Shown in pieces: positions 26 through 55,740 of a stretch of DNA of 57,629 nt. Source of the stretch: Girardia tigrina. Its lineage: Eukaryota. Under the pieces are notes generated by a model. It had not been told where the DNA came from and ran no database searches. It was given only the letters and a program-made list of their open reading frames with translations. The position numbers were made by a program, and so were the translations under genes. Location of the stretch: the NCBI GenBank assembly GCA_001938485.1, contig MQRK01250234.1, positions 74,680 to 132,308 on the forward strand. The letters are read 5' to 3'. The stretch's first letter is position 1; each line of letters begins with the position of its first letter.

Positions 26-66
26 GACCTGATGATGGGAATTTTATTATCCCGAAACGCGTCGTC
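26..66 (+). ncRNA. Minimal type-I hammerhead ribozyme (PLE-type)
   Basis: GAC-CTGATGA-T-GGGA(attttatta)TCCC-GAA-ACGCGT-C-GTC. Core CUGANGA...GAAA intact, stem I GAC/GTC, stem II GGGA/TCCC, palindromic stem III ACGCGT, GUC cleavage triplet (cut after 63). Confidence 0.88.
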
Positions 67-78
67 TTGTTTTTATCC

Positions 79-82
<4 letters not shown>

Positions 83-119
<37 letters not shown>
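83..119. repeat. (TA)n microsatellite; similar tracts at about 4050-4101, 4328-4342, 7063-7201, 14266-14417, 14824-14842, 26906-26921, 27236-27268, 53655-53789
   Basis: Directly visible dinucleotide repeats. Confidence 0.97.
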
Positions 120-123
<4 letters not shown>

Positions 124-281
124 CATTAATTTCACAAAGTGAAAAATGACGAAACATCTTTTAAATAACCATTGATTATTTCCCAATTCATTACCTTTTT
201 TGTTCTTATCATGAGGTGGATTATTTATTGACAGAACAGATTTAAAAAATTACTAAAATAAAACCAAAAAAGAGTCTATAT

Positions 282-3104
282 CAGGTGTGGGCAACTACGG
301 CCTTTAAGGCCACTTGCGGCTTTAAAAATAAATGCGGCCTTCATGACAAGCTGAAATATCTGAAGCTCTAACGAAATATTTTGCGGCCTTGAAAAAACTA
401 TTGCGACCTTCATGACAAAAGGAAAAGTCGGCCAATTTTGCGGTCTTCAAGACAAATTGAAGAGTTTAGACTGTACAGACAATCACACTGTTCCCTCTCA
501 ACCACAAACATGTACTCCTAGATGAAACATATACAAGTAAAGCTGCAGCAACAGGTAAGTGAGTAAGTAGGTGAGAAAGAGGAAAAGAGATTCAGTAATA
601 AAACAATACCACATTAAATTATTACCCTGGTCAAAAGTCAACTTTTCAACCCATGAGTGAAATGAAAAATGCCAGATTAAAAATAAACTCTTTTTTAATA
701 AAATCATAATTAAATTATAATTAAATAAGAAAGAAAATAAAAGTAATAAAAGATAATTAAATGTGTAATTAATTTATTCCAATAAAAATGTTGACAAGCT
801 ATCAAATTTACAGATACTTTATCCATTTGTTTGAAGAAATATTTATATTGATTGTTATATGCCTAGATACTAAATAAATAACTTAAAAGATAAGGAAGCA
901 ATAAATCAATTAAATAAATATTAATTTGATATTTGTAATTTTAATAAAGAATATTTAATTAAATTTTGAAGTATTTTTATTAAAATTAAAGAATTTATTT
1001 TTAATCTGTTATTTTTCATTTCACATGTGTGAAAATAGACTTCCCCTGGCTGTAACGCTTGACTCATTCTCGTTTTATCACTTTTGTTCATCACCCACGA
1101 AGCATTATCACAACAAATGGCTAATGTTGCAGCAGCCAGCCACCAAAAAGTCCAGGAAGATAGAATCTGAAAACCAACTGTTCAATCCAGACTGGGTGGT
1201 GGATTTATATATGATAAAGAGTGGCAACTCAATGATCTGTCTAAGATACAAGCAACAAAAAACAACTTTGAAGCACTCAAATGACAAGCAACATTATGAC
1301 TGTTGTAAGTCGCATGCGAAATACATGGCCTTTCAGGGTGAGGCAAGAAAGCAAGCATACGACACAATGAATTCCAATCACATGAATGAATAAACAATGT
1401 TCTCTAAGTTCAAGTCAATGTTCTCATAGTCCCGAAGTGGAGGTAACATTCAGAGTTGCCTTTCTGCTAGATGCTGCAGGGAAACCATATGCTGATGCCG
1501 AGCTATTCAAATCATGTTTGCTGGAAGTTGTACAATGTCTGCAGCCATCACACCTTAAAGAATACAAAGACTGGGTGGTCAAAATACAAAAACTCTCTCT
1601 CGAAGAACGGTTTTGAGGCGACAGGAACAGTTGGCTGCCAACGTCTTGCAACAACTGAATGAAATTTGTAAGTAACTTGATGTCTTATTCTCTGTGGCAT
1701 TAGATGAATCGTGTGATGCCACTGATACGACACAGTTACTGATCTTCATTCGCACTTCAACATCATCTTTTGACATCCATGAAGAACTCCTATCTCTTGC
1801 TAGTTCACATTCTACAACACGTGCAGCTGACATCCTTGCAGCGTTCAACAATGTATGTGTCGAAAAAGGAATCGACATAAGCAAACTTTTTGGCATGTGA
1901 TTAGTCGGTGCACCTGCAATGGTATGCAGAACAGGCGGCTTTGTGAAACTTCTCAAAAATCAAATTCGTACGAAATTCCCTGATTCTCGCAGTCTGGCTG
2001 CCTTCTTTTCACTTCACTGCATCATTCATCAACAAGCACTGTGTGCCAAGTCGGTTACACTGGGTAACACCATGGAAGAGACCATTGCCCTTACTAATTT
2101 CATACGTGCTCGTACCCGTAACCATCGTCAGTTCAGAGAACTTCTTCATGATGATGAATCAACTGAAAATGAAGACATTTTGTACCACACAAATGTTCGT
2201 CGGCTATCTACAGGAAGAGTCGTAAAAGGAATCTTTGAGTTGCAAGACCAAATCAAAGAATTTTACACCTCAAAAAGTGTGGAATGTAAACTATCACTTT
2301 CTAATGATATCACTTTATGTTTGAAGCTTGCATTCCTTGGAGATAATTTTGAACACTTGAATGGTCTCAACATACAGTTTCAAAAATCAAACTATATGTG
2401 ACCTGTGGCCTTATATCAAAGTGTTCATGCGAAAATTGAAGCTGTTTAACAGCAAGTTTGAGAGAAAGTTATTGATTACTGTTGACCACTTTCCCCTTCT
2501 ACATGAATTGATTACCAGACATCCTAATGCAGAAATTAAATGTGATATGTTCACTTTACTAATTGCTGAGTTTGACACACGATTCTAAGACTTCCGATGA
2601 CAAGAGGATAAGTTGTGCTTGGTATATGAGCCTCATTTACTCGAACCTGAGACTGTGGCGGAATTATATCAATTGGAGATTTTGGAGCTCAGTGAGGATG
2701 CCGTCTTTCGTCATATTTAAATGCAGCATACTGTGGATTTGGTTGGAAGAGTTCTGTTCAATATCCCAATCACATATATATGTGAAAGTGCTTTTTGCAC
2801 ATGAAATACTTTAAGTGTAAGCATCGTACAGTGTTGACTGACGCTCATTTACAAGATCAATTACGTTTGAAAACAACTAATTTTGAGCCGCCTTTTACTT
2901 GTCTAGCACAAATATGAAAAACAGATTAACACATTTTCTTGCTTTGTCTCTGTGTATTATTGTTTTATCAGTATTATACAATAGCTGTATATATGTACAA
3001 TTTGATGAATTTATACAAGAATATTGGTGAAATCAAAATGCAGCCTTCGATGTTACTAATAAGTGTCATGCGGCCTTCGGCTGTAAAAAGGTTGCCCACA
3101 CCTG
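282..3104 (+). mobile_element. Full-length hAT DNA transposon (Charlie/SPIN/Buster-like), decayed
   Basis: Perfect 14-bp TIRs CAGGTGTGGGCAAC (282-295) and GTTGCCCACACCTG (3091-3104). 8-bp TSD GTCTATAT (274-281) vs GTCTAAAT (3105-3112), 7/8 match and close to the NTCTAGAN target of Charlie-type hATs. Subterminal TGCGGCCTT repeats. Confidence 0.95.
1124..2935 (+). pseudogene. hAT transposase pseudogene (GTF2IRD2/SPIN-like), with frameshifts and stops
   Basis: Fragments in the expected order: KKSRKIESENQLFNPDW; ALDESCDATDTTQLLIFIR (first catalytic D); LHCIIHQQALCAK (CxxH); ILYHTNVRRLSTG; LAFLGD..HLNGLNIQFQ; C-terminal KHRTVLTDAHLQDQLRLKTT. Confidence 0.9.
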
Positions 3105-4050: not shown

Positions 4051-4107
<57 letters not shown>

Positions 4108-4380
4108 TTGTGATTAAAGAATTTCTGTAGTGATTATAAACAAATGTGTTTGATGAAGATTTGTTTATTTAAAATTATTAAAAAAATTAAAACATTAAAT
4201 TTAGATTTGATTCAGTCTATTCCTTTTTATGTTAATATTTTTTAGTTATTTTAATAGTAAAAAAGTTACAATTGTACTTAGAAATTCAAAAAGGCAGCCT
4301 TGGCAGACTCCATTTTTTAAAATAATCTATATATATATATATCGAAAAAATAATTTGATTAAAACTTTTTTTATATAATT

Positions 4381-4422
4381 ATTGGACATGTTTCGATGTT
4401 TGCATACATCATCATCAGTAAT
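4381..4422 (-). ncRNA. Minimal hammerhead ribozyme (PLE-type)
   Basis: Minus strand ATTA-CTGATGA-T-GATGT(atgcaa)ACATC-GAA-ACATGT-C-CAAT. Core intact, 5-bp stem II, palindromic stem III, GUC triplet. One mismatch in the stem I pair next to the core. Confidence 0.8.
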
Positions 4423-4499
4423 TTTTGGATGTTTAGTATATGAATATTGAATTAAGTATTAATTAAGTAATAACATTATGGTAACATTAGCAAATTATG

Positions 4500-4755
4500 T
4501 ACAGATGCACGAGTTAAAAAACAATTAAAAGAAGAAAATACTGAAAAATACAAACAAATCATTAAAATTCCATATACTGAAGGATTTAGAGCTTTTAAGA
4601 AGAGTATTTGTAGAACAATAAGTAGTGCTAAAGTAGTCTCTGTCACATTCAAAGTTCAAAGTTTCTTCTCAAACAAATCGAAAACAGTTTGTGATTTGCA
4701 AGATAATCTGGTATATAAATTTAATTGTCACGGGTGTCAAAACTCGTACATTGAA
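4500..4755 (+). mobile_element. Penelope-like element fragment (RT-EN linker and first half of GIY-YIG)
   Basis: IKIPYTEGF...KVQSFFSNKSKTVCDLQDNLVYKFNCHGCQNSYI; homologous to the PLE copies at 22.2 and 38.9 kb. Confidence 0.8.
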
Positions 4756-4759
4756 AGGA

Positions 4760-4907
4760 TACTGGACGACTGGCAATTTTGTTTCAGACTAAACAGAAGC
4801 ACAGCACACGCGATTGGTATCTTACGAAAAATACAAGAAGAGGCCAGATACCGGAACATAAACGTATTTGCTATTTTTATCGACCTTGAAAAGGCATTTT
4901 ATGACGT
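4760..4907 (+). mobile_element. Non-LTR (LINE, RTE-like) reverse transcriptase fragment
   Basis: QFCFRLNRSTAHAI...FAIFIDLEKAFYDV matches the LINE RT QxGFRxxRST...FIDLxKAFDxV region. Confidence 0.8.
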
Positions 4908-4949
4908 TAAATATGGATACAGAAGAAGATTTGTTGGAAACACTGTTTA

Positions 4950-7138: not shown

Positions 7139-7157
7139 CTGGAAATTTTTATTTCCC

Positions 7158-7205
<48 letters not shown>

Positions 7206-13095: not shown

Positions 13096-14359
13096 TAATG
13101 CATCTTTGATTTTATTATCTGAAGAAATATTCCATTGGCGAGATTTAGTGCAAAAGTTAAGAGGATTGTCTATTCATTGGTTTAGAAGGTTAATGATAAG
13201 ATTTAATTTGAACTGAAATGATTGTTTCGATTACTTTAAGGATATCTTTTGAAAACTGACATAAATGGAAAGAGTTATAAATCTTATTATTTATTTATTT
13301 TTATTCATATTCCGTAGAAAATTGATTCTTTAAATTTCTCTAATTAAAATAATATTAATATTACAATTTTAAAATATAATAATACTAAAATTTTATTATA
13401 CAATACCTAAATTAATAATGTTATGATTAATAAAGAAATGATAAATAAATAACAAATATACTGTAATAAATATGCAAATATTATAATATAATAATAACAC
13501 ATAACAAAAGAATAAATAATGTTTTTTTTAATTTTAAAATAAAAATGAATATATTGGTTGATAGATCGATTATTACAATACTTATAATCTATTTTTAAAT
13601 AAATAATAATTGATAAAATCAAAAAATAAAATTTTAAATAATTGATTTTTTATATTAAAATATTATATTAAGATAAAAACAGAAGTTCTTTCTTTTATTT
13701 ATTTTACAAAACAAATTAATAAAAATTTTACAAAAAAATTCAAATTTAAAGAATATTCAAAACTTAAAAATTACATTTGAAAAGAAAAAGCTTTTATTCT
13801 TTCTTTATTTTAATAAATTGTTTTAATGAGCTCAAAATATAAATCTTTAATATAATTAAAAAAAGAAAAGTGAAATGAAAATGATAAAATACAAAATCGT
13901 AAATTTTTCTTTGTTCTTTCAAAACGTTTATTTTTCAACATAAAAAAATTGAAATTTTGAAATAAAATTTTACTTTGATTTTATAGAGAATTTCTTATTT
14001 TCTCGTAATTAAATGAAACAAAATTTTATCTTTTATATAATTTTCCAAAAGCATTTTGAATTTATTTCACTAATCAAGATTTTTTTCTGAAAAATATTTT
14101 TTTGAAGAACAATAAATATCAATTACGAATGGTTTTAATTTTCATCATATTTTTTGAAATAATTTAATTATAAAATGGTCAAATATAAATTATGAGCACT
14201 TTAATAAATTTTTCCCTAATCAAATATATTTTTTCTCAATGTGTTCAAAAATGGTATTTCAGTTTATATATATATATATGCATATAATATATATATATAT
14301 ATANNNNNNNNNNNNNNNNNNNNNNNNNNNNNNNNNNNNNNNNNNNNNNNNNNATATGC

Positions 14360-14415
<56 letters not shown>

Positions 14416-14417
14416 TA

Positions 14418-14823
14418 CAGTCAGGTGCAAAATTTTGTGAACTCTTGTTGTTAAATTGTTTTTTGCACCCAACTGCAATTATATTGACAAAAACACACCA
14501 AAATATTTTTTTACAATAGTCTGGTGACACATTTTGAGTCCAAACAGTTTCCACTGCTTTGATCATGTCCTGCAGGGAATTTGGGTGCATGAGAGCAACC
14601 TGTTTCTTCACCTGAGTCCAGGCATTCTCAATCGGATTGAGATCCCGTGCGTTTCCTGGCCAAGGACCAAGAATTTGGAAGCATGACTGCGTTAACCACT
14701 CTTGAACAGCGTCGACATTGTGGCAAGGTGCTCCATCATGCTGAAAGAAGGTCGTTCTGTGTAGCTCCAGCAGTATAAAAAGCAGTATAGAAACAAGCGT
14801 TCACAAACTTTTCCACCTGACTG
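14418..14823 (-). mobile_element. Internally deleted Tc1-family transposon (D35E spacing, Traveler-like), 406 bp
   Basis: 25-bp TIRs CAGTCAGGTG(C/G)AAAA(T/G)TTTGTGAAC (23/25), TA flanks within (TA)n. Retains FQHDGAPCH...LGPWPGNARDLNPIENAW with 35 residues between D and E. Confidence 0.9.
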
Positions 14824-14883
14824 TATATATATATATATATATTTGAAAAATAATTTTTTAAAGCTTATTCTAAGAAATCGATT

Positions 14884-15110
14884 ATTATATATATTTTGGA
14901 AATTCTTTTTCTATCATCGGCAATTACATTTGTAAGTTATAATATTACGTTTTTGTAAAGTTAGTTTAAAAGGCATCATTTATTTATTTATTTATCTTAA
15001 TATAAGATTTTATACGAAAATATTGGCAAAATGTTTTAAAAATTTCAATTAAAGATTTTTACATTTGAAACAGTTTTACTTGGAATATTTGAATGTTCAT
15101 TGATGATTTG
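14884..15110 (-). mobile_element. Decayed PLE 3' end with degenerate hammerhead (14884-14924)
   Basis: ATTG-CCGATGA-T-AGAAA(aagaa)TTTCC-AAA-ATATAT-A-TAAT keeps the layout but has core mutations. Upstream KSSMNIQ...VKIFN resembles the GIY-YIG C-terminus. Confidence 0.5.
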
Positions 15111-15149
15111 TAGTGTTTTTTAATTAATGATTCTCAAATGCCGCTCATA

Positions 15150-15640
15150 ATGTGAATCGAAACCATTCTGTAAAACAGAAAACTTATTCTTTGAATCAGA
15201 AGAGATTTTATTTTTACATTGTATCCAAGATGAGGAATCTTTGCGATTGACTTTATTGCAAATTCTCACTAAAACGGTTTTTGAAAAGATAATTTGTCTC
15301 TTCAATTTACTAGTTGTTACACCCGTGACAATGACATTTATAAACCAATTTACGAAAGGAGTCAACACATAAAGAAATGGATATTGCACCCTTCCGCACC
15401 CTTATTTTTTATAACCACGAAACCCATCCATTTGTTTTTTGACAACGCCAAACGCAGTCATAAACACATTCAAAATCCTCAATCCTTATTCGAATATCAA
15501 CAAATTTATCGAGATAATCGTTCCAGAATAGACGAAGAATCTCTTATTATAACGAATATATTTTCTTACAAATCTCCATCTGATTATACTATTAACGAGT
15601 GATATATTAATCGACTTTGGGACAAAATATTTTATTTTCC
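15150..15640 (+). mobile_element. Possible highly decayed BEL/Pao integrase remnant
   Basis: YTRDND and IKKWILHPSAPLF resemble IYSDNG and IxWxFxPPxAPxF; a later RLWDK is in the expected order. Confidence 0.3.
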
Positions 15641-19687: not shown

Positions 19688-19980
19688 AAAATTCTGTGTA
19701 ATCGATTTAAAAATTACTGGGAGAGAGTAACGTGTGAGGCCTTATTAATAAGATCCATGGATCCAAAAATTAATATCCAAGCTTCACACTCAACTTCTCT
19801 GTTAAACATTTTCAAATAGAGCCTTTATTACATGATTGATTGCATAATCACCTTTCTCGTATATCAGCTGCAAAAAGCAGTGTTAATTTAGTCTGAAGAT
19901 GGCGGGTAATCCGCCGAAATTAATTACGAAAATAAATTGTGAAAAATGGAAAAAAAAGAAAAAGAAATTGACAAATAGTT
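19688..19980 (+). mobile_element. PLE 3' end (GIY-YIG C-terminus and 3' UTR)
   Basis: KILCNRFKNYWERVTCEALLIRSMDPKINIQASHSTSLLNIFK* (19688-19819), homologous to RVSCEALLIRSRCPKINVQS at 22.3 kb; hammerhead 68 nt downstream. Confidence 0.85.
19887..19931 (+). ncRNA. Minimal hammerhead ribozyme (PLE-type)
   Basis: TTTAGT-CTGAAGA-T-GGCGG(gtaat)CCGCC-GAA-ATTAAT-T-ACGAAA. Core intact, 5-bp GC stem II, palindromic stem III ATTAAT. Confidence 0.82.
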
Positions 19981-22239: not shown

Positions 22240-23000
22240 TAGCTCAAATTTCAATAAGCTGGTTGACATAACCGATTGAACATTGATTTTAGGGCAACGT
22301 GACCTAATTAGCAATGCTTCACACGACACTCTCCCAAAAACTATCAAAATGCGTACACAGAATTCTAAAATTTTTAATATTAAAATGTTTTCTCTCTTTT
22401 CGACCATGTTCTTGAATTCGTTTACAGAGATGACGGGCAGTCTCTCCAATGTATGTGGCATCGCACCAATTACATTTATATTCATAAACAATATCAGAAC
22501 AAAGTGTTAAAGGTGTAATAGATTAATTACTGAACATATTTTGAATTTTATGAGACCGTGATATAATTTTTAAATTTAATTTATTGTTAGTTGATTTTAA
22601 CAATGCATTTTTAAAGTTTTTAAATCCTTCAGAATAAGGTACAATTAAACAATATTTAGGCATATTATTAATATCTAATGATCCTTCGATTTCTTTCTTA
22701 GATCCATCAGGAGAAGCTAAACTCTCATTTTTCGAAATATCTTTCAAAAGTATTTTACCTACTGTTTCCTTTATTAATTTTTCCAGAAAAGATTTAGAAT
22801 AAGCATTCTGATTTAACAAAGAACTTAAATTATTAACACTTTTTACAGATTTAACAAAAGAGAAAGACAACAACCAGGAGCGATAAATGAAGCCTTTTAA
22901 CATGTTTCTTTTATACTTCGGTTCACAAAAACTGTCCGGTAAAGTATATAATCCTGTATCAGTTCGCATCCTATAAATTGCAGTTACGAGGCTTGAATCT
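22240..23000 (-). mobile_element. PLE fragment (RT thumb, linker, partly deleted GIY-YIG)
   Basis: YRMRTDTGLYTLPDSFCEPKYKRNMLKGFIYRSW...LIVPYSEGF...RVSCEALLIRSRCPKINVQ; highly similar at DNA level to 38909-39472. Confidence 0.88.
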
Positions 23001-23889
23001 GATAGGAAATTTGAAATTATAGAAAATCTCTACTTTAATATTTGTCCCTTTCAACAATTTTTTCTTAATGACTTTATAGAGGTTTTTATTTTTATTATGA
23101 ATCTAAGATTAAACTCGTGACTTTCTTCTATTTTATGTTTTATATATAACCCTTTCAAACCAAAACACTAGTATATTACTTGTATTTTTAGTATGGAATT
23201 TCACTGAATTATCCTATCCTACTGGCACAAAATGTTTGATTAACATTACCGATAGTGTATATTTAAAATCTATGAGGGCTCAGGAAATCAAGTTTGTGAG
23301 AAGTGGTTGCAACGTCTATATCAGAATTCATTTTTTTAAACACCAAAATTTATTTATATAACAATTCACATTTCTAAAACAAATTTTCTTGTTAATTTAA
23401 TTTAATTATCTCGACCCAAATTAATCCATTAAATTCTTTTCGATTTAATTTTTAAAATCCTGAAAATTTATTTCANNNNNNNNNNNNNNNNNNNNNNNNN
23501 NNNNNNNNNNNNNNNNNNNNNNNNNNNNNNNNNNNNNNNNNNNNNNNNNNNNNNNNNNNNNNNNNNNNNNNNNNNNNNNNNNNNNNNNNNNNNNNNNNNN
23601 NNNNNNNNNNNNNNNNNNNNNNNNNNNNNNNNNNNNNNNNNNNNNNNNNNNNNNNNNNNNNNNNNNNNNNNNNNATCATTTTTAATTTTAAAATATTGAA
23701 TAAGCATATTAACATAAAAATATTTTACCCTTTAAATTAAAAAAAAATAATAAACTATTCAGGCGAGATAAAAATTTAAATTAACCCCTCATAAAGTTTT
23801 TTTCAAAGACTACATTTTTGTTCCAAATAAAGATTTCTAGTCTCAAGTTAATTTTACTATATATTTTATATAAAAAACTCTATATCTTT

Positions 23890-26009: not shown

Positions 26010-26520
26010 TCTAAAACTCCTTTAAGTGTGCAAGCAAACCTAGTGTGAAGCCTTGCACATTGAAGAGCAGAAATCCCTGAGTGCAAGGCCAGAATGGACG
26101 TGCATCCACGTGGTATCCCTGGGAAACTAGAGTTCTCTTCTCTAGGTTAAGGTGTCCTAAGTTGAGCCATTTGCTGTTTGAAAGGTCGACAGCCTATTTA
26201 TCGATATTGGACTAGCAAACAAATATTTTGAAGGCCCAGCTTCAAAACCTGAGTATCAGGCTATATGGAGTAGTGACCCAGCAGTCGCGTGGTCGATTGC
26301 ATCGCAATGATCCAAGATTTTTAATCTTGGTGAGGGGTGTTGTGAAGCCGGTTCGCCGGTGGAGCTTAGGAATGTCAATCCTCGCATAGGTGGAGTGCCT
26401 TTTGAACCCATAAGCACCTCAGACCTCCTAAAAAGCCTCAGGCTTAATATCATTATAGGATGAGAGGATCACATTGGAGATACCAGCCGTCATCACCGAA
26501 CTAGAATCGCTGAAGAAACT
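26010..26520. other. GC-rich, hairpin-dense island; candidate structured RNA or retroelement UTR
   Basis: About half GC within very AT-rich flanks, with at least eight short perfect stems (see findings). No convincing ORF. Confidence 0.5.
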
Positions 26521-26921
26521 CAATCGAGTAAAAACATCTCCATTCTTAATCATAAATTAAATTGCAAAGATCGAAAAAATGTCGAATATAATAAATGATT
26601 TTAATTTTTGTGTAAAACTTTTGATAATTTTGATGTGAGAATAATTACGGAAGCATTTTAAATTATGTCTAAATGTTCAAAGTGATTTAACTAATCTTAC
26701 TAAAGTATTTTATGTTTTTTCCTTTTTTTGTAATTTTAATAATTTGAAATAATAAAAAAGCCTGAATATTTATTGATGTTGCAAAATAATCTATTGTTAT
26801 ATAGAGGATACTTATTTTCAATTTTCAATTAGTCAACTGACCATTCCAAAACTGGAAAAAATGTTTTGAAAAATAAATATTTAGGTAAATGTTGTTGTTA
26901 TGTGTTATATATATATATATA

Positions 26922-27230
26922 ACATTTAGATTTAATGACAATTTATTTATAAAGAAAATAAAGAAAAAACGCCATTTTAAAAGTTTTTTTATTTTGAAAA
27001 ACAAGTTTCGCCATTACGGCATCATCAGTTTGGAAGGACATTTCCATTTCCATTTGTATGGTACATTGACTATTACGCAATCAGTCTTTTTTTAATTAAT
27101 CTTAAAAGATTTTAATATGATTGGATAATGCACTCTGAACATTTAAGCATGGTTTTAAATGCTTTATAAACTCATATAACTCACATTTTAAAGACCCGCG
27201 TTAACCATTTTTTCATTCTTTTTATTAACT
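26922..27230 (-). mobile_element. PLE 3' end between two (TA)n tracts
   Basis: LKCELYEFIKHLKPCLNVQSALSNHIKIF* (about 27103-27195) is a GIY-YIG C-terminus, followed by a hammerhead and tail. Confidence 0.7.
26997..27031 (-). ncRNA. Minimal hammerhead ribozyme (PLE-type), weak stems
   Basis: AAA-CTGATGA-T-GCCG(taa)TGGC-GAA-ACTTGT-T-TTT. Core intact; stem III is one change from palindromic ACATGT. Confidence 0.7.
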
Positions 27231-34390: not shown

Positions 34391-35641
34391 TTAGGTTGGT
34401 CGAAAAATAATGGCGGTTTTGGGACACAAACTTCAAAGACGTGCAAATTCACAGAAACAAAAGTTTATTAATCAAAGTATGAACCGTTGGCATCAATACA
34501 TTTTTGCCAACGAGAAATAAGTTGTTTTATTCCATCAGCATAAAATGCATCGGTTCTCGAAGCGACGAATTCTTGGAAGGCATTTTGAGCATCATTTTGG
34601 TTTTTGAAATTTTTTTCACGTAAGAACTTGTACAAATGCCTAAAAAAGTAGAAATCCGTTGGCGATAGGTCTGTTGAATATGGTGGATGAAGCAGAGTTT
34701 CATAGCCCAACTCATTAAGCTTTTGAAGAGTCACTTTTGAAATATGAGGTCTAGCGTTATCATGAAGAAGGATGGGACTTTTAGATTGACCAATTCCGGA
34801 CAAAGGGTTTTCAATGTCTTATGCATTTCATCAATTTCATGACAGTACATCTCCGCTGTGATTGTTTCACTTGGATTCAAGAAACTATAGTGGATGATTC
34901 CAGTATCATACCACCAAACTGTCACCATAACCTTACGGGGTGTTACTTTCGGTTTCGGAAAGTGTTTCGGTACTTCATCTTTGTCCAACCACTGTGCAGA
35001 TCGACGTCGGTTATCATACAGGATCAATTTCTCATCACAGGTAACAATACGATCAAGAAATGGATCGTTCTTATTGCGAAGATGATTGGCAGAACAAATT
35101 TCATAGCGTCGGTTCTTTTGATTTTCATTCAAATCATGTTGAACCCATTTATCAAGTTTCTTGATTTTTCCAAGTTGTTTTAAATGATCCAGGACTGTTG
35201 AATGACTAATGTCCAACCAATCTGAAAGTTTTCTGATTGTTGTACGGGGATCTGTTTTCACCATTGTCCTCAAATTGTCGTTGTTAACAGCAACTGGACG
35301 ACCACGACCTTCTTCATCTTCAAGGTTCTCATCTCCATCAGAAAATTTTGTTCCCTTGCCAAGCGCTTTATTGATATTGCGAGCCGTTTCTGATGCTTTA
35401 CAACCCAGTTTAAATTCTTACAAGAAAATTGCTCGAATTTTAATTTTTTCCATTATTAATTTAGCACTGTAAATATTCTAAAAAATAACAGCAATATGTT
35501 AATAATGGCTATATGAATATACAGCTAGGCATAAGATTTCAAATAATATCTAACACTAATACATTTAAACTTATATACATATCAAAGTAAATAAACAAAG
35601 TATAAAGCTCAAAAACCGCCATTATTTTTCGACCAACCTAA
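34391..35641 (-). mobile_element. Near-full-length mariner (cecropia subfamily, Hsmar1/Dtmar1-like), copy A
   Basis: Perfect 30-bp TIRs TTAGGTTGGTCGAAAAATAATGGCGGTTTT; TA TSD at 34389-34390 and 35642-35643. Confidence 0.96.
34468..35453 (-). pseudogene. Mariner DD34D transposase pseudogene, copy A
   Basis: MEKIKIRAIF..., WVQHDL, IVTCDEK, LLHDNARPH, HPPYSTDLSPTDFYFF. Stop near the start, about 30-bp deletion near 35349 relative to copy B, and a frameshift near 34785. Confidence 0.93.
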
Positions 35642-36599
35642 TATTTAAAAAAATATAAATTCAATAGATAAAAAATATTTAAAAGAGATAGTAATAAGAA
35701 AACTTAAGTAAAAAAAAGTTCCAAATCTCAGTGAAATAAATAGAAAAATTTATTAAAATTATATTAAAAGTAAAAAAATAATGATTTACATTAAACTACA
35801 ATAAATCTTTTAATTATTGATTATTTAACAAATGTATTTTTTTAATTTTAATAATAAAATGTAAACAAAAATTGCCGATCGTTTATTATTCTTATGAAGA
35901 CGAAGAAACAAAAACAAAGAAAAATATTTTGTTCCTTTTTTCATCAATTTTTGTTCGAATTTTCGCACTATTTCTTTTAGTTTTATCATTAGATTTAGTA
36001 ATTTACTTAATGTCGAATTACATTTTACGATGTTGTTTCTTAACGTTTACCGTCATTCGCTATCCTTAAGTTTCTTTTTCCTAGGCAAAGGTAGTTTGAT
36101 GTAGAAACTGAATATTACTGATGGTTAATCAGTTTACGTCTCAATCAGTTTTGATGTAATTAAACCAAGAGCGCGTCTGAAAATCACTTTGATAATCCGC
36201 TGATAAAAATATTAATAATTGATTTTTATTTTAAAATAAATCATTTATTTTTTATTAGATATGTTAAATTTTCTATATAAAAAAATAAAAAAAAATATTA
36301 TTTACGTATTTTTTATTTATTTTATTTATATTCTTGAATCAGTAAATGTATACATAATAAATGAGTTCATTTGGTAATTAATTTTGAAACAATATTTCCG
36401 AATATTATAAAAAATAATTATTATACTGACAAGGAAAATTGAACAAGTGTACAAATGTGTACAATAATAGAGTAGATAATGTTATTTATACTTAATAAAC
36501 ATTCTCTGTCATAACTAAAAAGAAGAAACGTAAAAATACTAAATTTTTATAAACTTTGAAGGTTTTTAATTTTAGCAACAAGATTTACAACCAAAGGTA

Positions 36600-37060: not shown

Positions 37061-38727
37061 TTAAGAAAATGTAATAACATATTTATGTATTAAATCTTTG
37101 AATCTATATAACTTTCTTCCTTTTTGATTGCGACATCTAATTTTTTGTAGGTATATGTACATATAACTTTATTTATTTTATCAAACTACAAGTTTTCAAC
37201 GAAATAGATCAGTGACACTTTTTCAACCTTCCTTGTTGTTAATATTGAGCCAGAAAGAATGTTTGAGTATTTTTGTCTGTCTGAATTATAATTCTTAGTG
37301 AGATGGTGGATATGATATATATATATATATATAGACGAGTTCAAAAATCTTCTATATTTTTCCAAATTGACCAATAACTGGAAAAATCCATGAAAAATCT
37401 TTATTTCGTAATTTGAAATTTCTTAAGTTTTCTATAGCAATTAATCAATTTATCTATATTAATATTTATATGACATTAAATCTCAAATTATTATTTATTT
37501 ATAATTATATTATTATTATAGTATGACATTACAACTACATTTAGAACATTGATCTGTTTTCCGACATTTCTATTAATATTAGAAGTTGAATCCTCATCCA
37601 GATAATCAATAACAAACTCTTGTAGAAGATGTATTGTGGAAGATTGGATCTTTTTTGTAATTATTTGAATAAATTTGTCATTTAAATATTTTTAATATAT
37701 TTAAAAGGACTTTCAATAATCGAAATTAAAATGAATATTTATTGTTTTCAAAATTATTAGTACAATTTCGTTTATGTAAAATTAAAAATTAAATTAATCA
37801 AATAATTTAAAATTTTATAACGATAATAAATTAATAATAAATCTAAATTTAAATTAAACGAATTTTAGATAATAAGAATTAAGAAACACAATCTCAAACA
37901 AAAACATCACATTCAAGCACAAAACACCAAGCATTCCTCATTCCTTGTAATTCTTCTTTATCTTCCTATTTAAAAGACTGTAATAAAAGTGTACAAAAAG
38001 AAAACTGAAAAATAACTTAATGTTCTTATCGTACAAAGATAGCATAAGCTAAGTTTTTCATTTTAATTCATAGGTTTTCAGTGAAATGATTCTAAAATGA
38101 AATACCGAATTTTGTATTAAACTATTTGGTAAATATACCAAACCAACTAGAGAATTATTTTACCTACCATACTTGAAGGAATTAAAAAATGTATCTACAA
38201 ACAAATAACATTAATACAACGATAATGATAGTTACATTAAAAAAGAAACTTTTTATCTCGAGATTCTTCTTTAATTTAATGGGTAGGACAAATCTAAAAC
38301 ACAAACTCAAGTAAACAGTAGTGATAGGTTTCTGAAGTTTGCAAACCCAATAACACCAGCCGTACTTATGTAAAGAAATACTCATTAAACAAACATACTT
38401 GAGTAATTGTGTATCGTTTGTGATTTTCTAACTGTATTTTTTCTAAATAAACAAATTAGTGTACCACTAACTTTAGTTTACTAAAGTGAGCATTCTTATC
38501 TTTAATTTAATGTAAAATATAATAAGTTTTAATAATTATGAAAGCCTCATGTTAAGGCAATTTAAGTAAAAATTTTCTGGACTAGAATCTTTAAATTTAT
38601 GGAAGGTCTTTTTTGCAGCATATTCAGAATCATCAATTTCGACAACTGAGTTCATTGAAAGATTTTTTTTTAAAAAAGATATAAATTAGTCATCTTCAAG
38701 CAATAATAATAAATAATATCACATTTT

Positions 38728-39530
38728 GATAAAACGAAGTCCGGATGAAAATCTTCTTTTAATAACCAAAGTCATCCATTTAAAAATATATTTTAAGACA
38801 ATATATTTCGACGGTTCTACCGTCATCTTCAGGTCACTAATTAATAATCAATTCACCTGTATATAAGTACAAAAATGATGATTATGTAATCGATTACATG
38901 AAATCATGCTAATCAAAAATTCTCAATAAGCTGGTTGAGACTGCCGATTGAACATTGATTTTAGGGCAACGTGACCTAATAAACAATGCTTCACACGACA
39001 CTCTCCCAATAACTGTCAAAATGCTTACACATAATTTTGAAATTATCAAAATTAACATCACATTTACATTTTTCCTATGTTCTGCAATATTACTCTTACT
39101 CTCTTTTCGGTCATGTTCTTGAATTCGTTTACAGATATGACGGGCAGTCTCTCCAATGTATGTTGCATCGCATCCATTACATTTATATTCATAAACAATA
39201 TCAGAACAAAGTGTTAAAGGTGTAATAGATTTATTACTGAACATATTTTGAATTTTATGAGATCGTGATATAATTTTTAAATTTAATTCATTGTTAGTTG
39301 CTTTTAACAATGCATTTTTAAAGTTTATAAATCCTTCAGAATAAGGTTCAATTAAACAATATTTAGGCATATTATTCATATCTAATGATCCTTCGATTTC
39401 TTTCTTAGATCCATCAGGAGAAGTCAAACTCTGATTTTTCGAAAAATCTTTCAAAAGTATTTTATCTACTGTTAGATCCGTCTAAATATTTTGTCTTAAA
39501 ATATATTTTTAAATGGATGACTTTGGTTAT
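38728..39530 (-). mobile_element. 5'-truncated PLE insertion with inverted terminal segment and 14-bp TSD
   Basis: TSD TAATATCACATTTT (38714-38727 and 39531-39544). ORF remnant 38909-39454 with IVYEYKCNGCDATYIGETARHICKRIQEH. About 59-bp inverted repeat 38761-38819 vs 39473-39531 (3 mismatches). Confidence 0.92.
38797..38835 (-). ncRNA. Minimal hammerhead ribozyme in the PLE 3' end
   Basis: GAC-CTGAAGA-T-GACGGT(aga)ACCGTC-GAA-ATATAT-T-GTC. Core intact, 6-bp stem II, palindromic stem III; 73 nt downstream of the GIY-YIG stop, same sense. Confidence 0.87.
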
Positions 39531-39563
39531 TAATATCACATTTTCTTCTTTTTTTAAATATAT

Positions 39564-40861
39564 GAAGAACATTTAGACAAGTCACGTTTGAACTTTTATT
39601 ACAATCACATTTAGAGGGATTATGACTCTCAGAAAGTCTTTCATCGTTTGTCATCATTCTAATTGGTTTTATTATTTTTCTTTTTAATCATGATTATTCG
39701 AACAATTTTTCTAAGTCATGCAGTTTTTATTTTTGAATCGTTCTCCTATTCAACTTGATGATATGCACTCCCCAAGTCGATCGTGCTGAAGTACTTCGCT
39801 CCATTTAATATATTCAGCATTTCTTCTACATTTGGCATTGGAAATGCTGGTCTGATTGTGACTTTATTTAATTGTCGAAAATCAACACATATTCGGATAA
39901 CCTGTTTGTCTTTTTTCCATACGCATACTAGCGGGAAATTCCCCGGGAACTGCATTTTTCAATAATATCATTTTCCTCGTAATTTTTGATAATATCATCT
40001 AGTCTTTCCTCAAAGTGTTTTGGCTGTCGGTACGGTTTTACCAGTATTGGTTCTCCTTGCGTTTCAATTTTATGCTTAGTTAGTGTGGTCTTCCCTATAT
40101 CCCATTTTTCCGCCATAAATATCGTTTCATATTCTATTAATAATTTTATTAATGGTTCATCTATCTTATCTGCGTATATTTCCATCATTCTTTTTAGTCT
40201 GTCTCCGTTAGTTAAAGTATCGCCTATTACCAGTACTCCTTCGTTGTATCTGTTTCTTTCTTTAGTTTTATGCTGAATTTATTTAGGAAATCTATTCCTG
40301 CAATCATTTCGGGTTCCAAGTCTTTAACCACAAAAAAAATCCACTGTTTTCTGTATTCTTTCAATCTTAATCTTTAGTTGTACTATTCCGCAATTTACTA
40401 GTTCCGAGTCGTTAGCACAGTGTATACGTCTTTTTGTTTCCTTTATTTTGACATCCTTCATATTTTTGAGTAAGTCTACTTTAATTACATTGACTTGTGC
40501 TCCCGTATCCAATAGACATCGTAATTTTTTATTCTTTATTTGAAATTCTATACTAGATTTCCCTTTCAGTTCTTCGTATTCTATTTTAAATTTTGATATT
40601 TTCATTATATCTGTGCTTTGTTTTTATCTTTTCCTGCGATCAAACTGTCACATTTATCATTGTGTATTTCGTTTTCACTATCTAATAATTTCTCTTGATA
40701 ATTGGTGTAAGAAGAACATTTAGACAAGTCGCGTTTGAACTTTTATTACAATCACATTTAGAGTCATTATGACTCTCAGAAGATCTTTCATCGTTTGTCA
40801 TCATTCTAATTGGTTTTCTTATTTTTCTTTTTAATCATGATTATTCGAACAATTTTTCTAA
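39564..40861 (-). mobile_element. Ty3/Gypsy gag-end, protease and RT-start fragment bounded by a 151-bp direct repeat
   Basis: LRCLLDTGAQVNVI (PR); DIGKTTLTKHKIETQGEPILVKPYRQP; IRICVDFRQLNKVT...YFSTIDLGSAYHQVE (RT). Direct repeats 39564-39714 and 40711-40861 with 6 differences. Confidence 0.9.
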
Positions 40862-45962: not shown

Positions 45963-46246
45963 GTAAGTTTTAGTAAATGCTTTCAAAGAAACAATTGGAG
46001 TCTGTCTGCACTGTTAAAAATGTTTTATTACTTCATAGAAATATTTCAAAAATGACGATAAATGATAAGTAATTTAAAGATTTTGTGCTCACTTTTTGAT
46101 ATTTACTCGGAAAGGATAATGAAATATGAAGGGATCAAATCTTTTGAACCTAAAATCAATGTGCAAATACCATCTCCTTCAACTTTTTTGAAAGTATTTT
46201 CATAATTTGTAAATAACATAATCATAACATAAACATTGATTTGATA

Positions 46247-47593
46247 TTAAGTTGGTCGAAAAATAATGGCGGTTTTGGGACACATACTTCAAAGACATGC
46301 AAATTCACAGAAACAAAAGTTTATTAATCAAAGTATGAACCGTTAGCATCAATACATTTTTGCCAACGAGAAACAAGTTGTTTTATTACATCAGCATAAA
46401 ATGCATCTGTTCTCGAAGCGACCAATTCTTGGAAGGCATTTTGAGCATCATTTTAGTTTTTGAAATTTTTTTTCACGTAGGAAGTTGTACAAATGCCTGA
46501 AAAAGTAAAAATCCGTTGGCGAGAGGTCTGGTGAATATGGTGGATGAAGCAGGGTTTCATAGCCCAACTCATTAAGCTTTTGAAGAGTCACTTTTGAAAT
46601 ATGAGGTCTAGCGTTATCATGAAGAAGGATAGGACCTTTTCGATTGACCAATCCCGGACAAAGGGTTTTCAATTTCTTATGCATTTCATCAATTTCATGA
46701 CAGTACCTCTCCGCTGTGATTGCTTCACCTGGATTTAAGAAACTATAGTGGATGATTCCAGTATCACACCACCAAACTGTCACCATAACCTTACGGGGTG
46801 TTACTTTCGGTTTCGGAAAGTGTTTCGGTACTTCATCTTTGTCCAACCACTGTGCAGATCGACGTCGGTTATCATACAGGATCAATTTCTCATCACAGGT
46901 AACAATACGATCAAGGAATTGATCGTTTTATTGCGAAGATGATTGGCAGAACAAATTTCATAGCGTCGGTTCTTTTGATTTTCATTCAAATCATGTGGAA
47001 CCCATTTATCAAGTTTCTTGATTTTTCCAAGTTGTNNNNNNNNNNNNNNNNNNNNNNNNNNNNNNNNNNNNNNNNNNNNNNNNNNTTTCCAAGTTGTTTT
47101 AAATGATCCAGGACTGTTGAATTACTAATGCCCAACCCATCTGCAAGTTCTCTGATTGTTGTACGGGGATCTGTTTCCACCATTGTCCTCAAATTGTCGT
47201 TGTTAACAGCAACTGGACGACGACGACCTTCTTCATCTTCAAGGTTTTCATCTCCATCAGAAAATTTTCGGAACCATCGTTGCACTGTGCGCTCAGAAGC
47301 TGTTCCCTTACCAAACGCTTTATTGATATTGCGAGCCGTTTCTGTTGTTTTACGACCCAGTTTAAATTCGTACAAGAAAATTGCTCGAATTTTAATGTTT
47401 TCTATTATTAATTTAACACCGTAAATATTCTAAAAAATAACAGCAATATGTTAATAATGGCTATAGGAATATACAGCTAGGTATAAGATTTCAAATAATA
47501 TCTAAGACTAATGCATTTAAACTTATATACATATCAAAGTAGATAAACAAAGTATAAAGCTCAAAAACCGCCATTATTTTTCGACCAAACTAA
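46247..47593 (-). mobile_element. Near-full-length mariner (cecropia subfamily), copy B, with transposase pseudogene at about 46323-47405
   Basis: Same TIRs as copy A (one change at each end) and TA TSD. YEFKLGRKTTETARNINKAFGKGTASERTVQRWFRKF, LLHDNARPH, HPPYSPDLSPTDFYFF. ATG changed to ATA, two frameshifts; interrupted by the 50-N gap 47036-47085. Confidence 0.95.
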
Positions 47594-47620
47594 TATATAA
47601 ATGTGATCATCATTGTAAGT

Positions 47621-47660
47621 TTAGTCTGATGATGGCGGTTAATCAGACAAAATCAATTAC
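47621..47660 (+). ncRNA. Degenerate hammerhead, relative of the 19887 copy
   Basis: TTAGTCTGATGATGGCGGTTAATCAGACAAAATCAATTAC vs TTAGTCTGAAGATGGCGGGTAATCCGCCGAAATTAATTAC; stem II and GAAA are broken. Confidence 0.55.
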
Positions 47661-53532: not shown

Positions 53533-53650
53533 ATAACATATGAAAATTCATTTTACACCACGAAAAATAGTTTCCAGCCGTTGTCTTGTTGTGAAATATC
53601 GCTGAAATAATTACCGACCCCTTATAAAGATTGGACATGATAGCAGCCAT

Positions 53651-53682
<32 letters not shown>

Positions 53683-54770
53683 NNNNNNNNNNNNNNNNNN
53701 NNNNNNNNNNNNNNNNNNNNNNNNNNNNNNNNNNNNNNNNNNNNNNNNNNNNNNNNNNNNNNNNNNNNNNNATATATATATATATATATTTGAACATATT
53801 CAATTGAGTAGGAATAGTTTTTCTTTTCTCGATCAATTTAAAAAATTCAAAAATAGAGATTAAGTAAACTACGGAAGTGAATTTACAATCTTCCAGAAAA
53901 ATTTTGACACACATCATTAAAAGATAATTTCAAAAATGAAGAGTGCATTAAAAACACCTTGATCGAAGTTTCGAATCCCACGAATTTTATAACAGAGGCC
54001 TTAAGATGTTACCTGAAGGTTGGGCACGAGTAGTCGAAAACAACGGCGACTATATTGTTGATTAAATTGTTTTCTTTGTTTAAATAAATTTGTTTCAAAT
54101 ATAATTTTTAAAACGACATTAATTATTACTTGACATAATATTATTAAATCATTTTTCACGTAGCTATCATATAAAACATATTATTTTGGGAATCATATGA
54201 AGGTTGATCTAAGTCAAACGACTATGGAAAAGTGACATATTCTTAATGGAAACATGGAATGAATGCACCTGCCATTTTTGAATATCTATGGGCTCTGCCC
54301 TGCTACTGTACCAGCGAGAAACTGCCAACGAATAATTGCCAAATTCATTTTTGGTAATTTTGTCGTTGATGAGGAAGAGGAAAGTGATATGACATTGTTT
54401 TAAGATGATGAAGAAGATAGAATCAAATAATTTCTACATACGAAAAATATACTACGTAATATTGCAGAAGAGATGTTGTCTCAGACAAAAGTATTTCTAC
54501 ATTTGTACAAAACTGGAAAGCAGTATTTTTTGTGCAATAAAAATAAAGTCAACGTGGAAAGAATATATCACGAATTAAAAGTGATACACTGAAACAACTT
54601 TTTTCCAAACTCATAACGGCTGATGTGAAGAGGTTATTTTGAAACAATGAAAATGGCTGCTATCATGTCCAATCTTTATAAGGGGCCGGTAATTATTTCA
54701 GCGATATTTCACAACAAGACAACGGCTGGAAACTATTTTTCGTGGTGTAAAATGAATTTTCATATGTTAT
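53533..54770. repeat. 124-bp inverted repeat pair (53533-53656 and 54647-54770)
   Basis: Reverse-complement identical except one position; the left arm abuts (TA)n and the N gap 53683-53771. Confidence 0.9.
53900..54138 (+). mobile_element. Mariner 3' end remnant
   Basis: EFYNRGLKMLPEGWARVVENNGDYIVD* followed by a TIR-like AAAACGACATTAATTATTACTTGACATAA and TA. Confidence 0.7.
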
Positions 54771-54879
54771 TTACTTCCTCAAGAAAAAGAAATGAAAACA
54801 GAAAGTTTGAATGAAAACTTAGTTTGCAAAAACTAGTACATGCAATTCAGAAAAAAGTGCTTGTGCTGTAGAAAAGTTT

Positions 54880-55100
54880 TTACCATAACATGTTTCACTT
54901 AAAATAAGCTTCTTAAAATCGGTTTTAGGGTGAAAATGCATCCATCATACTACTAAGATCTTGTCTCTTCTGACAAACATCTGTTTTTTTCTATGAAATC
55001 TCACTTTTTTGGAAATAGATCACTCCCTGAAAAGATTTGGAAAAAGAGTTCACTTTAAAACTTACATAACTTTCGGAAAACGAAATAAAAACTTACAGTA
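54880..55100 (+). mobile_element. Mariner transposase remnant
   Basis: LLKIGFRVKMHPSYY*DLVSSDKHLFFSMK matches HPPYSPDLAPSDYHLF. Confidence 0.55.
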
Positions 55101-55149
55101 GTAAAAAAAACAAAAGTGCGTGGACCTTAAAGATTTTTATTTATATAGT

Positions 55150-55740
55150 CTATTGTCTAAAATTAATAATAATGTAAACAAAGGCCATTTTTTATTAATA
55201 AATTTATTTCCAAAACAAACGCTTTTCACAATTACGACATCTTCAGTGCAATGAAATAAAGTGATTAATTAATTTTTATATAATTGAAAAACAATTATAT
55301 CATAGATCTTAAAAATATGCTTAAAAATGATTTTAATGATATTTAAAATTTTTTATTGCTATTTGAAAAAAACATTAATATTATTAGAGAAATTACGTTA
55401 CACGCATAAGCATGTTTTATGATGTTTTATTAATCATGCTTTGACAATAATCCTTTCATAATTTAAAATAACTTTAAAATCTTTATTAAGATCATTAATA
55501 TTACCTTTGCATTGTTAATATGGCTCAATATTGAACTTTTCTACTCGATTGAATATGTTCAGCAATTCTAGTGCGGAGATGACGACTTGTCTCTCCAATG
55601 TACAAGGCTTCGCACCAGTGACATTTGAGTTAATATACAATGGAGTTTTTGATTTATTGGAAAAATTCTTTCCAGCATTTATTGGTAACAAAGATTACTC
55701 TCAATTTAAAGCCAACACGGGTTTCATGTTCTAAAAATCT
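55150..55740 (-). mobile_element. PLE 3' fragment with degenerate hammerhead (55215-55249)
   Basis: NFSNKSKTPLY...CEALYIGETSRHLRTRIAEHI. Downstream GCA-CTGAAGA-T-GTCGTAATTGT-GAAAAGCGTT-TGT, with stems II and III damaged. Confidence 0.72.

What the first reader, a model, noticed from the sequence alone, without database searches (positions are those of the whole stretch)
26..55249. Eight minimal hammerhead ribozyme motifs, most at Penelope-like element 3' ends, with covarying stems and palindromic stem III
Seen: motifs at 26-66(+), 4381-4422(-), 14884-14924(-, decayed), 19887-19931(+), 26997-27031(-), 38797-38835(-), 47621-47660(+, decayed) and 55215-55249(-, decayed). The intact ones share CTGA(T/A)GA-T-stem II-GAA-hexamer-H-stem I. 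Stem II differs but stays paired (GGGA/TCCC, GATGT/ACATC, GGCGG/CCGCC, GCC/GGC, GACGGT/ACCGTC). The hexamer differs but stays palindromic (ACGCGT, ACATGT, ATTAAT, ATATAT; ACTTGT is one change away). Five lie just downstream of a GIY-YIG C-terminus in the same sense. Established: PLE pseudo-LTRs carry minimal type-I hammerheads thought to cleave as dimers through palindromic stem III. Inference: several PLE subfamilies each have their own palindrome, which could restrict dimerisation to the same subfamily. The class is known; these families and that specificity idea may not be.
Basis: partly seen in the sequence, partly recalled or inferred. Interest (0 to 1): 0.72.

Follow-up and report, generated by a model that had tools for sequence, protein, structure and literature searches.

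The report
Penelope retrotransposon hammerhead ribozyme remnants
The eight motifs are real but mostly broken copies of the small, predicted self-cutting RNA already known from the ends of Penelope-type jumping genes, and the proposed family-specific pairing code does not hold because different families share the same palindrome; the one extra is that one motif belongs to an abundant 652-base unit with no match to Penelope enzymes that is predicted to fold into a strongly base-paired RNA.

Summary
All eight motifs are present and far above chance; the genome holds at least 33,088 (control 17). Seven are pseudo-LTR remnants of Penelope/Poseidon-type retrotransposons: five lie just after a GIY-YIG end in the same sense, a sixth is split from it by a mariner, one is an inverted pLTR. 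Only three match their family intact. Palindromic stem III is confirmed, but five palindromes serve 13 or more families, and 10 of 66 family pairs share one. Stem I, which is also swapped in a double hammerhead, separates most pairs; nothing points to selection for discrimination. The ORF start codon lies inside the ribozyme, 5' of the cut, so the palindrome also codes. The two identical hammerheads of one tandem transcript likely pair with each other. This class is in print (Cervera 2014; Arkhipova 2013; Frangieh 2024), and this scan reached similar verdicts on other windows. Extra: motif 26-66 belongs to a 652-nt non-autonomous, retrozyme-like unit (roughly 2,500 copies) predicted to fold into two homologous rods (z -8.4), with an unexplained 273-codon wrap-around frame that shows no detectable selection. 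Cleavage is untested.

The parts
26..66 (+). Intact minimal hammerhead (ACGCGT; predicted cut after 63) on a solo 3' stub of the 652-nt non-autonomous unit; about 20 nt of tail, then (TA)n. An assembly gap lies just upstream of the window.
4381..4422 (-). Hammerhead of family C1 (ACATGT; predicted cut after 4385). Core intact, core-proximal stem I pair lost. Part of an inverted pLTR, 4338-4453.
4486..4908 (+). Endonuclease-region fragment, 92% identical to P0010 (the protein linked to family C1), head-to-head with the 4381 pLTR
14884..14924 (-). Dead hammerhead (U4, G10.1 and G12 changed; ACATGT decayed to ATATAT) in pLTR remnant 14846-14940
15048..15348 (-). GIY-YIG C-terminal fragment upstream of the 14884 motif, same sense
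19688..19816 (+). Last 43 codons of a GIY-YIG endonuclease (98% identical to P0002)
19887..19931 (+). Intact hammerhead of family A4 (ATTAAT; predicted cut after 19925). The AUG at 19899-19901 (A9-U9.1-G10.1) is the ORF start of this family.
26470..26710 (+). GIY-YIG C-terminal fragment
26837..26865 (+).
26997..27031 (-). Hammerhead of family B3 with mutated palindrome (ACATGT to ACTTGT) and altered stem I, in pLTR remnant 26952-27081
27105..27167 (-). Last 20 codons of the endonuclease upstream of the 26997 motif
38728..39530 (-). 5'-truncated A1 element: inverted half-pLTR (39470-39534), endonuclease 38912-39481, pLTR and tail, flanked by a 14-bp target-site duplication (38714-38727 and 39531-39544)
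38797..38835 (-). Intact hammerhead of family A1 (ATATAT; predicted cut after 38800, nine codons after the in-core AUG)
46065..46202 (+). GIY-YIG C-terminus belonging to the 47621 motif
46244..47596 (-). Mariner transposon inserted in the TATA-like box of that pLTR, separating the endonuclease end from the hammerhead
47621..47660 (+). Dead hammerhead (G12 changed, stem II and palindrome broken), A5-like
55215..55249 (-). Decayed hammerhead of family B1 (ACGCGT to AAGCGT, stem II broken) in pLTR remnant 55168-55304
55368..56734 (-). Broken RT/endonuclease pieces (55368-55810, 56147-56728) upstream of the 55215 motif, with a possible inverted half-pLTR at 56689-56734(+)

Best explanation
Seven of the eight motifs are pseudo-LTR remnants of Penelope/Poseidon-type retrotransposons and the eighth ends a 652-nt non-autonomous unit; each is a minimal type-I hammerhead that likely cuts only when the two identical copies on one tandem transcript pair through the palindrome and swapped stems I. 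Shown: complete elements carry the same hammerhead at both ends (2,764 nt apart in L371); the ORF start codon lies inside the motif, 5' of the cut; a TATA-like box lies 33-40 nt upstream and AATAAA/AATATA just downstream. Inferred: the RNA starts at stem I and ends shortly after the second hammerhead, and double cleavage would remove the cap with the AUG and the poly(A) end, leaving a unit-length, untranslatable RNA that could circularise. A palindrome is needed because both partners have the same sequence. It changes by compensatory drift, also limited by the codons it encodes, and does not mark subfamily identity. The solo, truncated window copies have no partner and are most likely inert.
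For: Enrichment. Of loci picked on the endonuclease alone, 17 of 23 have a strict motif within 450 nt in sense, 21 of 23 with one mismatch, and 2 of 23 in antisense. About 30,158 of 33,917 counted motifs carry one of five palindromes. All 13 family majorities are palindromic. RT with DKG and YxDD plus a C-terminal GIY-YIG with CCHH and no linker zinc finger. pLTR-ORF-pLTR element L371. In-core AUG joined in frame to the ORF N-terminus in A1, A2, A4 and A7 copies. 12 of 13 majorities are open from an in-core ATG through 60 nt past the cut, with a null of 0.09-0.24 each. TATA-like box in 11 of 12 families. The same anatomy is in print.
Against: No cleavage, RNA end or circle was observed; the runs laid were contigs only. 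Published min-HHR dimers cleave poorly. The PAc hammerhead cleaved only with the element's protein, was not needed for insertion in vitro, and no RNA-seq ends were found at its cut site. Proximal stem I is only 2-5 bp, and unconstrained two-strand folding gave the double-hammerhead fold clearly for only 1 of 12 families, B1. Genomic copies run about 50-130 nt past the cut, so the cut does not set the 3' end of insertions. For B and C families the link from in-core ATG to the RT frame is inferred from open tails, not seen in a full element.
Confidence: 0.7

Rival explanations
1. Family-specific code: the palindromes were selected to differ so that hammerheads dimerise in trans only with their own subfamily.
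For: Mixed hexamers pair worse than matching ones (for example ACATGT -4.6 against -0.8 to +2.6 kcal/mol). With stem I included, 62 of 66 pairs lack a complete hammerhead on either side.
Against: Ten of 66 pairs share the palindrome; a uniform draw from 5 or 8 palindromes would give 13 or 8 (my arithmetic). Sharing follows descent: all clade A families are ATATAT or ATTAAT. A4 x A5 is as compatible as either homodimer. Further families add no new palindrome. AU hexamers are too weak to drive trans pairing (-0.8 and -0.2 kcal/mol).
Confidence: 0.1
2. The motif is a protein-assisted ribozyme or RNP switch: the PLE protein chaperones folding, and cleavage shuts off translation by removing the AUG rather than making the transposition template.
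For: PAc cleaves only with its protein, and uncleaved RNA is the dominant template (PMC11167929 passages). The AUG is 5' of the cut in every family examined. Tails extend past the cut.
Against: It does not by itself explain the strict palindrome conservation through at least four double substitutions. It is compatible with the dimer model as an added layer.
Confidence: 0.15
3. The motif is no longer catalytic and persists as start-codon context, promoter-proximal or protein-binding sequence.
For: Overlap with the ORF start and an Inr-like site; weak stems.
Against: The catalytic core and the stem II, stem I and palindrome covariation persist across families that use three different start positions and two reading frames through the core.
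Confidence: 0.05

Closest known systems
Minimal hammerheads (min-HHR) of metazoan PLE pseudo-LTRs (Cervera and De la Pena 2014, PMC4209133; main text parts 1-3 of 4, supplement file 2 part 1 and passages)
   Same: Type-I core, extra nucleotide between 9 and 10.1, G10.1-C11.1, short stem I, palindromic 15.2-16.2 and loop 3, many covarying families per genome, mostly solo truncated copies. The supplement lists a PLE-linked Schmidtea motif with CUGAAGAU and UAUA.
   Different: Copy number here (at least 33,088) exceeds the min-HHR counts given there (about 2,000 plus 1,300; 4,000; 9,000). Family B1 has G10.1-U11.1. These particular families were not found in the papers I could read.
PAc (Poseidon, Anolis carolinensis) hammerhead (Frangieh et al. 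2024, PMC11167929; passages)
   Same: [quoted passage not shown]
   Different: Here the start lies in loop II in B1-B3 and in the palindrome in C1, behind short out-of-frame AUGs. No activity was measured here.
EN+ Penelope elements of Adineta vaga (Arkhipova et al. 2013, PMC3846280; passages) and the Penelope/Poseidon clade (Craig et al. 2021, PMC8557442; passages)
   Same: pLTR with TATA box, Inr and the first codons of the ORF; inverted truncated pLTR; optional tail; target-site duplication; C-terminal GIY-YIG with CCHH and no CX2-5CxxC linker.
   Different: Clade placement here rests on motifs, not on a tree with named reference elements.
Animal non-LTR retrozymes (Cervera and De la Pena 2020, PMC7229834, passages; Li et al. 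2026, bioRxiv 10.64898/2026.07.22.740005, parts 1-3 of 5), for the 652-nt unit
   Same: Non-autonomous hammerhead-to-hammerhead unit within the reported 51-972 bp range; partial tandems; PLE-type ends; strongly folded RNA predicted.
   Different: It has a minimal dimer-type hammerhead without evident loop-loop contacts. Copies are dispersed stubs with inverted pLTRs at (TA)n rather than long arrays. It has two homologous rod arms and a long open frame starting in the core. No autonomous partner was identified and no circular RNA is shown.

Membership tests
PLE minimal type-I hammerhead | Core CUGANGA...GAAA...UH | tested here: met
   Intact in 6 of 8 window motifs (not 14884, not 47621); 33,088 genome hits against 17
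PLE minimal type-I hammerhead | Extra nucleotide between 9 and 10.1; G10.1-C11.1 | tested here: met
   U9.1 in all 12 family majorities; G-C in 11 and G-U in B1
PLE minimal type-I hammerhead | Tiny palindromic helix III | tested here: met
   13 of 13 family majorities; about 89% of counted genome motifs
PLE minimal type-I hammerhead | Located in the pLTRs at both ends of a PLE ORF | tested here: met
   L371; 17 of 23 endonuclease-selected loci. Not met for the 26-66 family, which has no recognisable RT or EN
PLE minimal type-I hammerhead | Self-cleavage as a dimer | not testable with these tools
   Needs transcription assays; the runs laid were contigs
Penelope/Poseidon PLE | Single ORF with RT (DKG, YxDD) and C-terminal GIY-YIG | tested here: met
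   L065 532-aa frame: RVT_1 E=6.9e-14, GIY-YIG E=3e-4, below its cut-off; DKG in P0005 and L371
Penelope/Poseidon PLE | CCHH in the endonuclease, no CX2-5CxxC linker | tested here: met
   Read by eye from translations against the definition in PMC8557442
Penelope/Poseidon PLE | RT phylogeny within the clade | not tested
   No named reference elements were on hand; the tree has unnamed homologues only
Penelope/Poseidon PLE | Partial tandem or inverted pLTR, tail, target-site duplication | tested here: met
   38728-39530 with a 14-bp duplication; L360, L371, L373
Animal non-LTR retrozyme (652-nt unit) | Non-autonomous unit with a type-I hammerhead in consecutive repeats | tested here: met
   Hammerhead-to-hammerhead spacing 647-651 nt in L244, L253, L274; no match to 120 PLE proteins within the unit or to Pfam
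Animal non-LTR retrozyme (652-nt unit) | Canonical hammerhead with loop-loop contacts, in tandem arrays | tested here: not met
   Minimal motif; only stubs, partial tandems and inverted forms among the copies examined
Animal non-LTR retrozyme (652-nt unit) | Accumulates as circular RNA | not testable with these tools
   Contigs of runs guessed to be RNA cover the unit but cannot show circles
Rfam hammerhead families | Match to a curated model | tested here: not met
   No hammerhead hit at E<=10; motifs this small lack helix III and the loop contacts

The most novel reading that the evidence does not exclude
The family of motif 26-66 is a viroid-like, protein-coding retrozyme. Its 652-nt RNA is released from tandems by a dimer hammerhead, circularises, folds into two homologous rods, and is translated from a frame that runs through the ribozyme and is longer than the circle (273 stop-free codons), while borrowing Penelope enzymes to reinsert at (TA)n.
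Probability: 0.1. Interest if true: 0.75.

Novelty: new member of a known kind. Interest (0 to 1): 0.3.

Why it matters
The core finding adds families, not a concept. Two things have some value. First, one genome holds 13 or more co-existing families with a known mix of shared and unshared stems I and III (A4 x A5 predicted compatible, A1 x the 652-nt unit predicted not). That is a ready panel for asking whether these ribozymes pair in cis or in trans, and whether cleavage serves translation control or template processing; what PLE hammerheads are for is still open. Second, the 652-nt unit is a candidate structured, non-autonomous PLE passenger with a minimal hammerhead. If it accumulates as a circle or is translated, it would link PLE pLTRs, retrozymes and viroid-like coding circles.

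Tried and rejected
Rfam: no hammerhead match.

Subfamily-specific palindrome: rejected as stated. Purine-first palindromes: only 829 ARNNNT hits, and most of the first 100 listed look like point mutants of pyrimidine-first families. The forced-dimer energies are not comparable when no stem I forms, so only pair counts were used.

The 652-nt unit as a decayed GIY-YIG: a by-eye resemblance to a recalled motif is not significant against an HMM of 106 homologous endonuclease ends or against 30 genomic GIY-YIG loci. As the 3' end of a LINE: rejected for the copies seen, because the unit starts with its own tail; the one pair of copies sharing 1.6 kb upstream sits in DDE-transposase-like sequence. 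Selection on its ORF: none detected (singleton synonymous share 64 of 316 against 0.204 expected; shared variants 7 of 19; older copies); power is low. ORF homologues: only P0121 (90%) among 20 candidates and among 1.84 billion representatives, plus a repeat artefact, P0122. The protein atlas gave no answer.

RNA: contigs of four runs cover the A1 element; three of four cover the 652-nt unit throughout. They cannot show ends, strand or level, and RNA status is a guess for all but X5. A pile-up of 5' truncations just before the hammerhead was not seen: 16 of 244 copies end within 20 nt. No autonomous partner of the 652-nt unit was found.

Lunse et al. 2017 (PLE hammerheads cleaving as dimers) is not held. 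I know it only through a review passage, and it may already treat mixed dimers. Searches found no paper on palindrome-based family specificity. Supplement file 1 of PMC4209133 and the bioRxiv supplements were not seen and could bear on family novelty.


Full report
Observation. The window is 25% G+C and littered with mariner, Tc1, Ty3/gypsy-like and PLE fragments. A strict descriptor recovers three, against a mean of 0.006 in 500 local dinucleotide shuffles; Rfam has no matching model. In the window's genome (G000, 1.43 Gb) the pattern CTGAWGATS-N8-20-SGAAAYNNRTH matches 33,088 times against 17 for the reversed control. This is a lower bound, because family B1 ends stem II in T and is mostly excluded. 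Earlier scan notes call the genome a probable flatworm; I did not test that.

Palindromes. A15.1 and U16.1 are fixed by the core, so only the inner four bases are informative. Counts are ACATGT 10,179, ATATAT 10,900, ATTAAT 5,618 and ACKMGT 3,461 (99 of the first 100 listed are ACGCGT or ACTAGT, my count), against 829 for a purine at 15.2. So about 30,158 of 33,917 counted motifs (89%) carry one of five palindromes; the AYNNYT class was not counted. All 13 family majorities built from fetched loci are palindromic (276 of 319 assigned copies; the sample is biased by my hexamer-specific searches, and 73 of 392 motifs were left unassigned). At least four double substitutions separate the five palindromes, with no fixed non-palindromic family.

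Context in the window. Five motifs follow a GIY-YIG C-terminus in sense. The 47621 motif is a sixth once a mariner in its TATA-like box is set aside. The 4381 motif is an inverted pLTR facing an endonuclease piece of its own family. The 38797 motif lies in a textbook truncated insertion with an inverted half-pLTR and a 14-bp target duplication. A ninth decayed motif and two half-motifs were missed. Only 26-66, 19887 and 38797 match their family fully. Independent test: of 28 loci picked by the Pfam GIY-YIG model and examined (2 duplicates of a host-like gene left out), 23 had at least 300 nt downstream. Of these, 17 had a strict motif in sense, 21 with one mismatch allowed, and 2 in antisense; most of these loci are one family, B1.

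The elements. [quoted passage not shown] (passages). L371 is a complete but broken pLTR-ORF-pLTR with hammerheads 2,764 nt apart, identical in stems I and III. An endonuclease tree of 15 family-linked pieces and 21 homologues gives three groups: A (100/99; ATATAT in three lineages, ATTAAT in three), B (93/94; ACTAGT, ACATGT twice, ACGCGT) and C (100/99; ACATGT); two rows are short and several branches are long.

Start codon. Copies share mostly 50-130 nt beyond the cut, and that tail is the start of the ORF. In 12 of 13 family majorities a frame is open from an ATG inside the core through 60 nt past the cut (null 0.09-0.24 each, families not independent); the thirteenth, A4, is open for about 260 codons in L371. 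The link to the ORF N-terminus is seen directly in A1 (5 of 6 hammerhead-bearing 5' ends in frame among 30 loci, only 1 of them without a stop; L360 open) and in A2, A4 and A7 copies. The start is A9-U9.1-G10.1 in clade A, B4 and the 652-nt unit, loop II in B1-B3, and inside ACATGT in C1. The palindrome is therefore also coding, and a cut would remove the AUG. A TATA-like box lies 33-40 nt upstream of C3 in 11 of 12 families, an Inr-like motif 5-9 nt upstream in 8 of 12, and AATAAA or AATATA within 13 nt after the cut in 10 of 13; no null was run for these AT-rich motifs. TATA, Inr and first codons in the pLTR are described for Adineta (passages), and an AUG at stem II for PAc (passages).

Specificity. 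In a double hammerhead (established model; Cervera 2014) stem III forms between the two hexamers, and by its geometry each stem I joins the 5' strand of one copy to the 3' strand of the other. Among 12 families, 10 of 66 pairs share the hexamer. Four of those (A1xA2, A1xA3, A4xA5, B3xB4) also keep at least 2 bp of stem I on one side, and A4xA5 equals the homodimers. Families are thus mostly incompatible, but sharing is no rarer than a random draw and follows descent, as drift would give. AU hexamers are too weak (-0.8 and -0.2 kcal/mol) to drive trans pairing, so pairing in cis between the two ends of one transcript is the likelier route. Against the model: unconstrained two-strand folding clearly gave the double hammerhead for only one family, published dimers cleave poorly, and PAc needed its protein and did not need cleavage for insertion in vitro.

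The 26-66 family. None of 98 copies has an endonuclease upstream. The unit is 652 nt by majority, is seen as partial tandems and inverted forms, and makes up 73 of the first 100 ACKMGT hits, roughly 2,500 copies by extrapolation from short contigs. Its tails end 10-29 nt (33 of 85) or 40-49 nt (35 of 85) past the cut, and 49 of 85 abut (TA)n; two end positions recall the PLE tail. One genomic copy folds at z -6.1. The circular majority folds at z -8.4 on the sense strand (46 G-U pairs, no A-C among five 1x1 mismatches) against -3.2 antisense; PLE controls give +0.7, -0.6 and -4.0. Two rod arms are homologous (score 67 against a maximum of 56 in 300 shuffles). Common transitions keep pairing more often than rare ones (23 of 26 against 101 of 166, p=0.007; arms only 14 of 16 against 74 of 114, p=0.09). 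The structure was predicted from the same copies, and A-to-I editing could give the same asymmetry. Read as a circle or tandem, one frame is stop-free for 273 codons (shuffles: mean 76-83, maximum 220 in 2 x 1,500), entering the hammerhead in frame and continuing as a 175-codon ORF. No selection, domain or distant homologue was found. It works like an animal retrozyme (51-972 bp, PLE-derived) but fails the canonical-hammerhead and array criteria.

Verdict. The motifs are real, of a known kind, and mostly dead in this window. The palindrome code is not supported as stated. The anatomy of the autonomous families is in print, and earlier scan notes on this genome reached the same view. The 652-nt unit, for which the scan holds no look-alike, is the part worth a bench look. 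Interest 0.3.

Noticed in passing
L253:1394-2040; L244; L237:784-1302; window 26-66: 652-nt non-autonomous hammerhead unit with two homologous rod-like arms (z -8.4) and a 273-codon wrap-around open frame of unknown meaning; partner element not found.
   Followed up: partly
pLTR majorities: A TT(A/G)C(A/G)TAA-like motif recurs about 50-55 nt upstream of the hammerhead in most A and B families; it resembles a C/EBP or PAR bZIP site (recalled, not tested).
   Followed up: no
families B1-B3 and C1: A9-U-G10.1 opens a short out-of-frame uORF (2-14 codons) ahead of the likely start in loop II or in the palindrome.
   Followed up: no
L253:1434, 1591, 1664, 1708: A>G differences seen in run X1 but hardly in X6 or X7; lineage differences or RNA editing of the structured unit.
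   Followed up: no
window 34387-35645 and 46244-47596: Two mariner copies about 96% identical with terminal inverted repeats; the second sits in a PLE TATA-like box.
   Followed up: partly
window 22249-23002(-) and 27296-27903(+): PLE endonuclease ends with no recognisable hammerhead downstream.
   Followed up: partly
window 39561-40861: Broken Ty3/gypsy-like fragment with an aspartyl protease match (40324-40623) between 154-bp direct repeats.
   Followed up: no
window 959-2401 and 14264-14800: Decayed DNA-transposon pieces: a zinc-finger/hAT-like fragment (by eye, weak Pfam match) and a Tc1 DDE_3 fragment.
   Followed up: no
L117; L025/L026; L349, L373: Head-to-head palindromic pLTR stubs, and internally deleted PLEs with two hammerheads 842-1,039 nt apart.
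   Followed up: no
L371 3' region: A 200-nt stretch near the end of the A4 element folds better than shuffles (z -3.8); it may reflect an assembly duplication next to the N gaps.
   Followed up: partly
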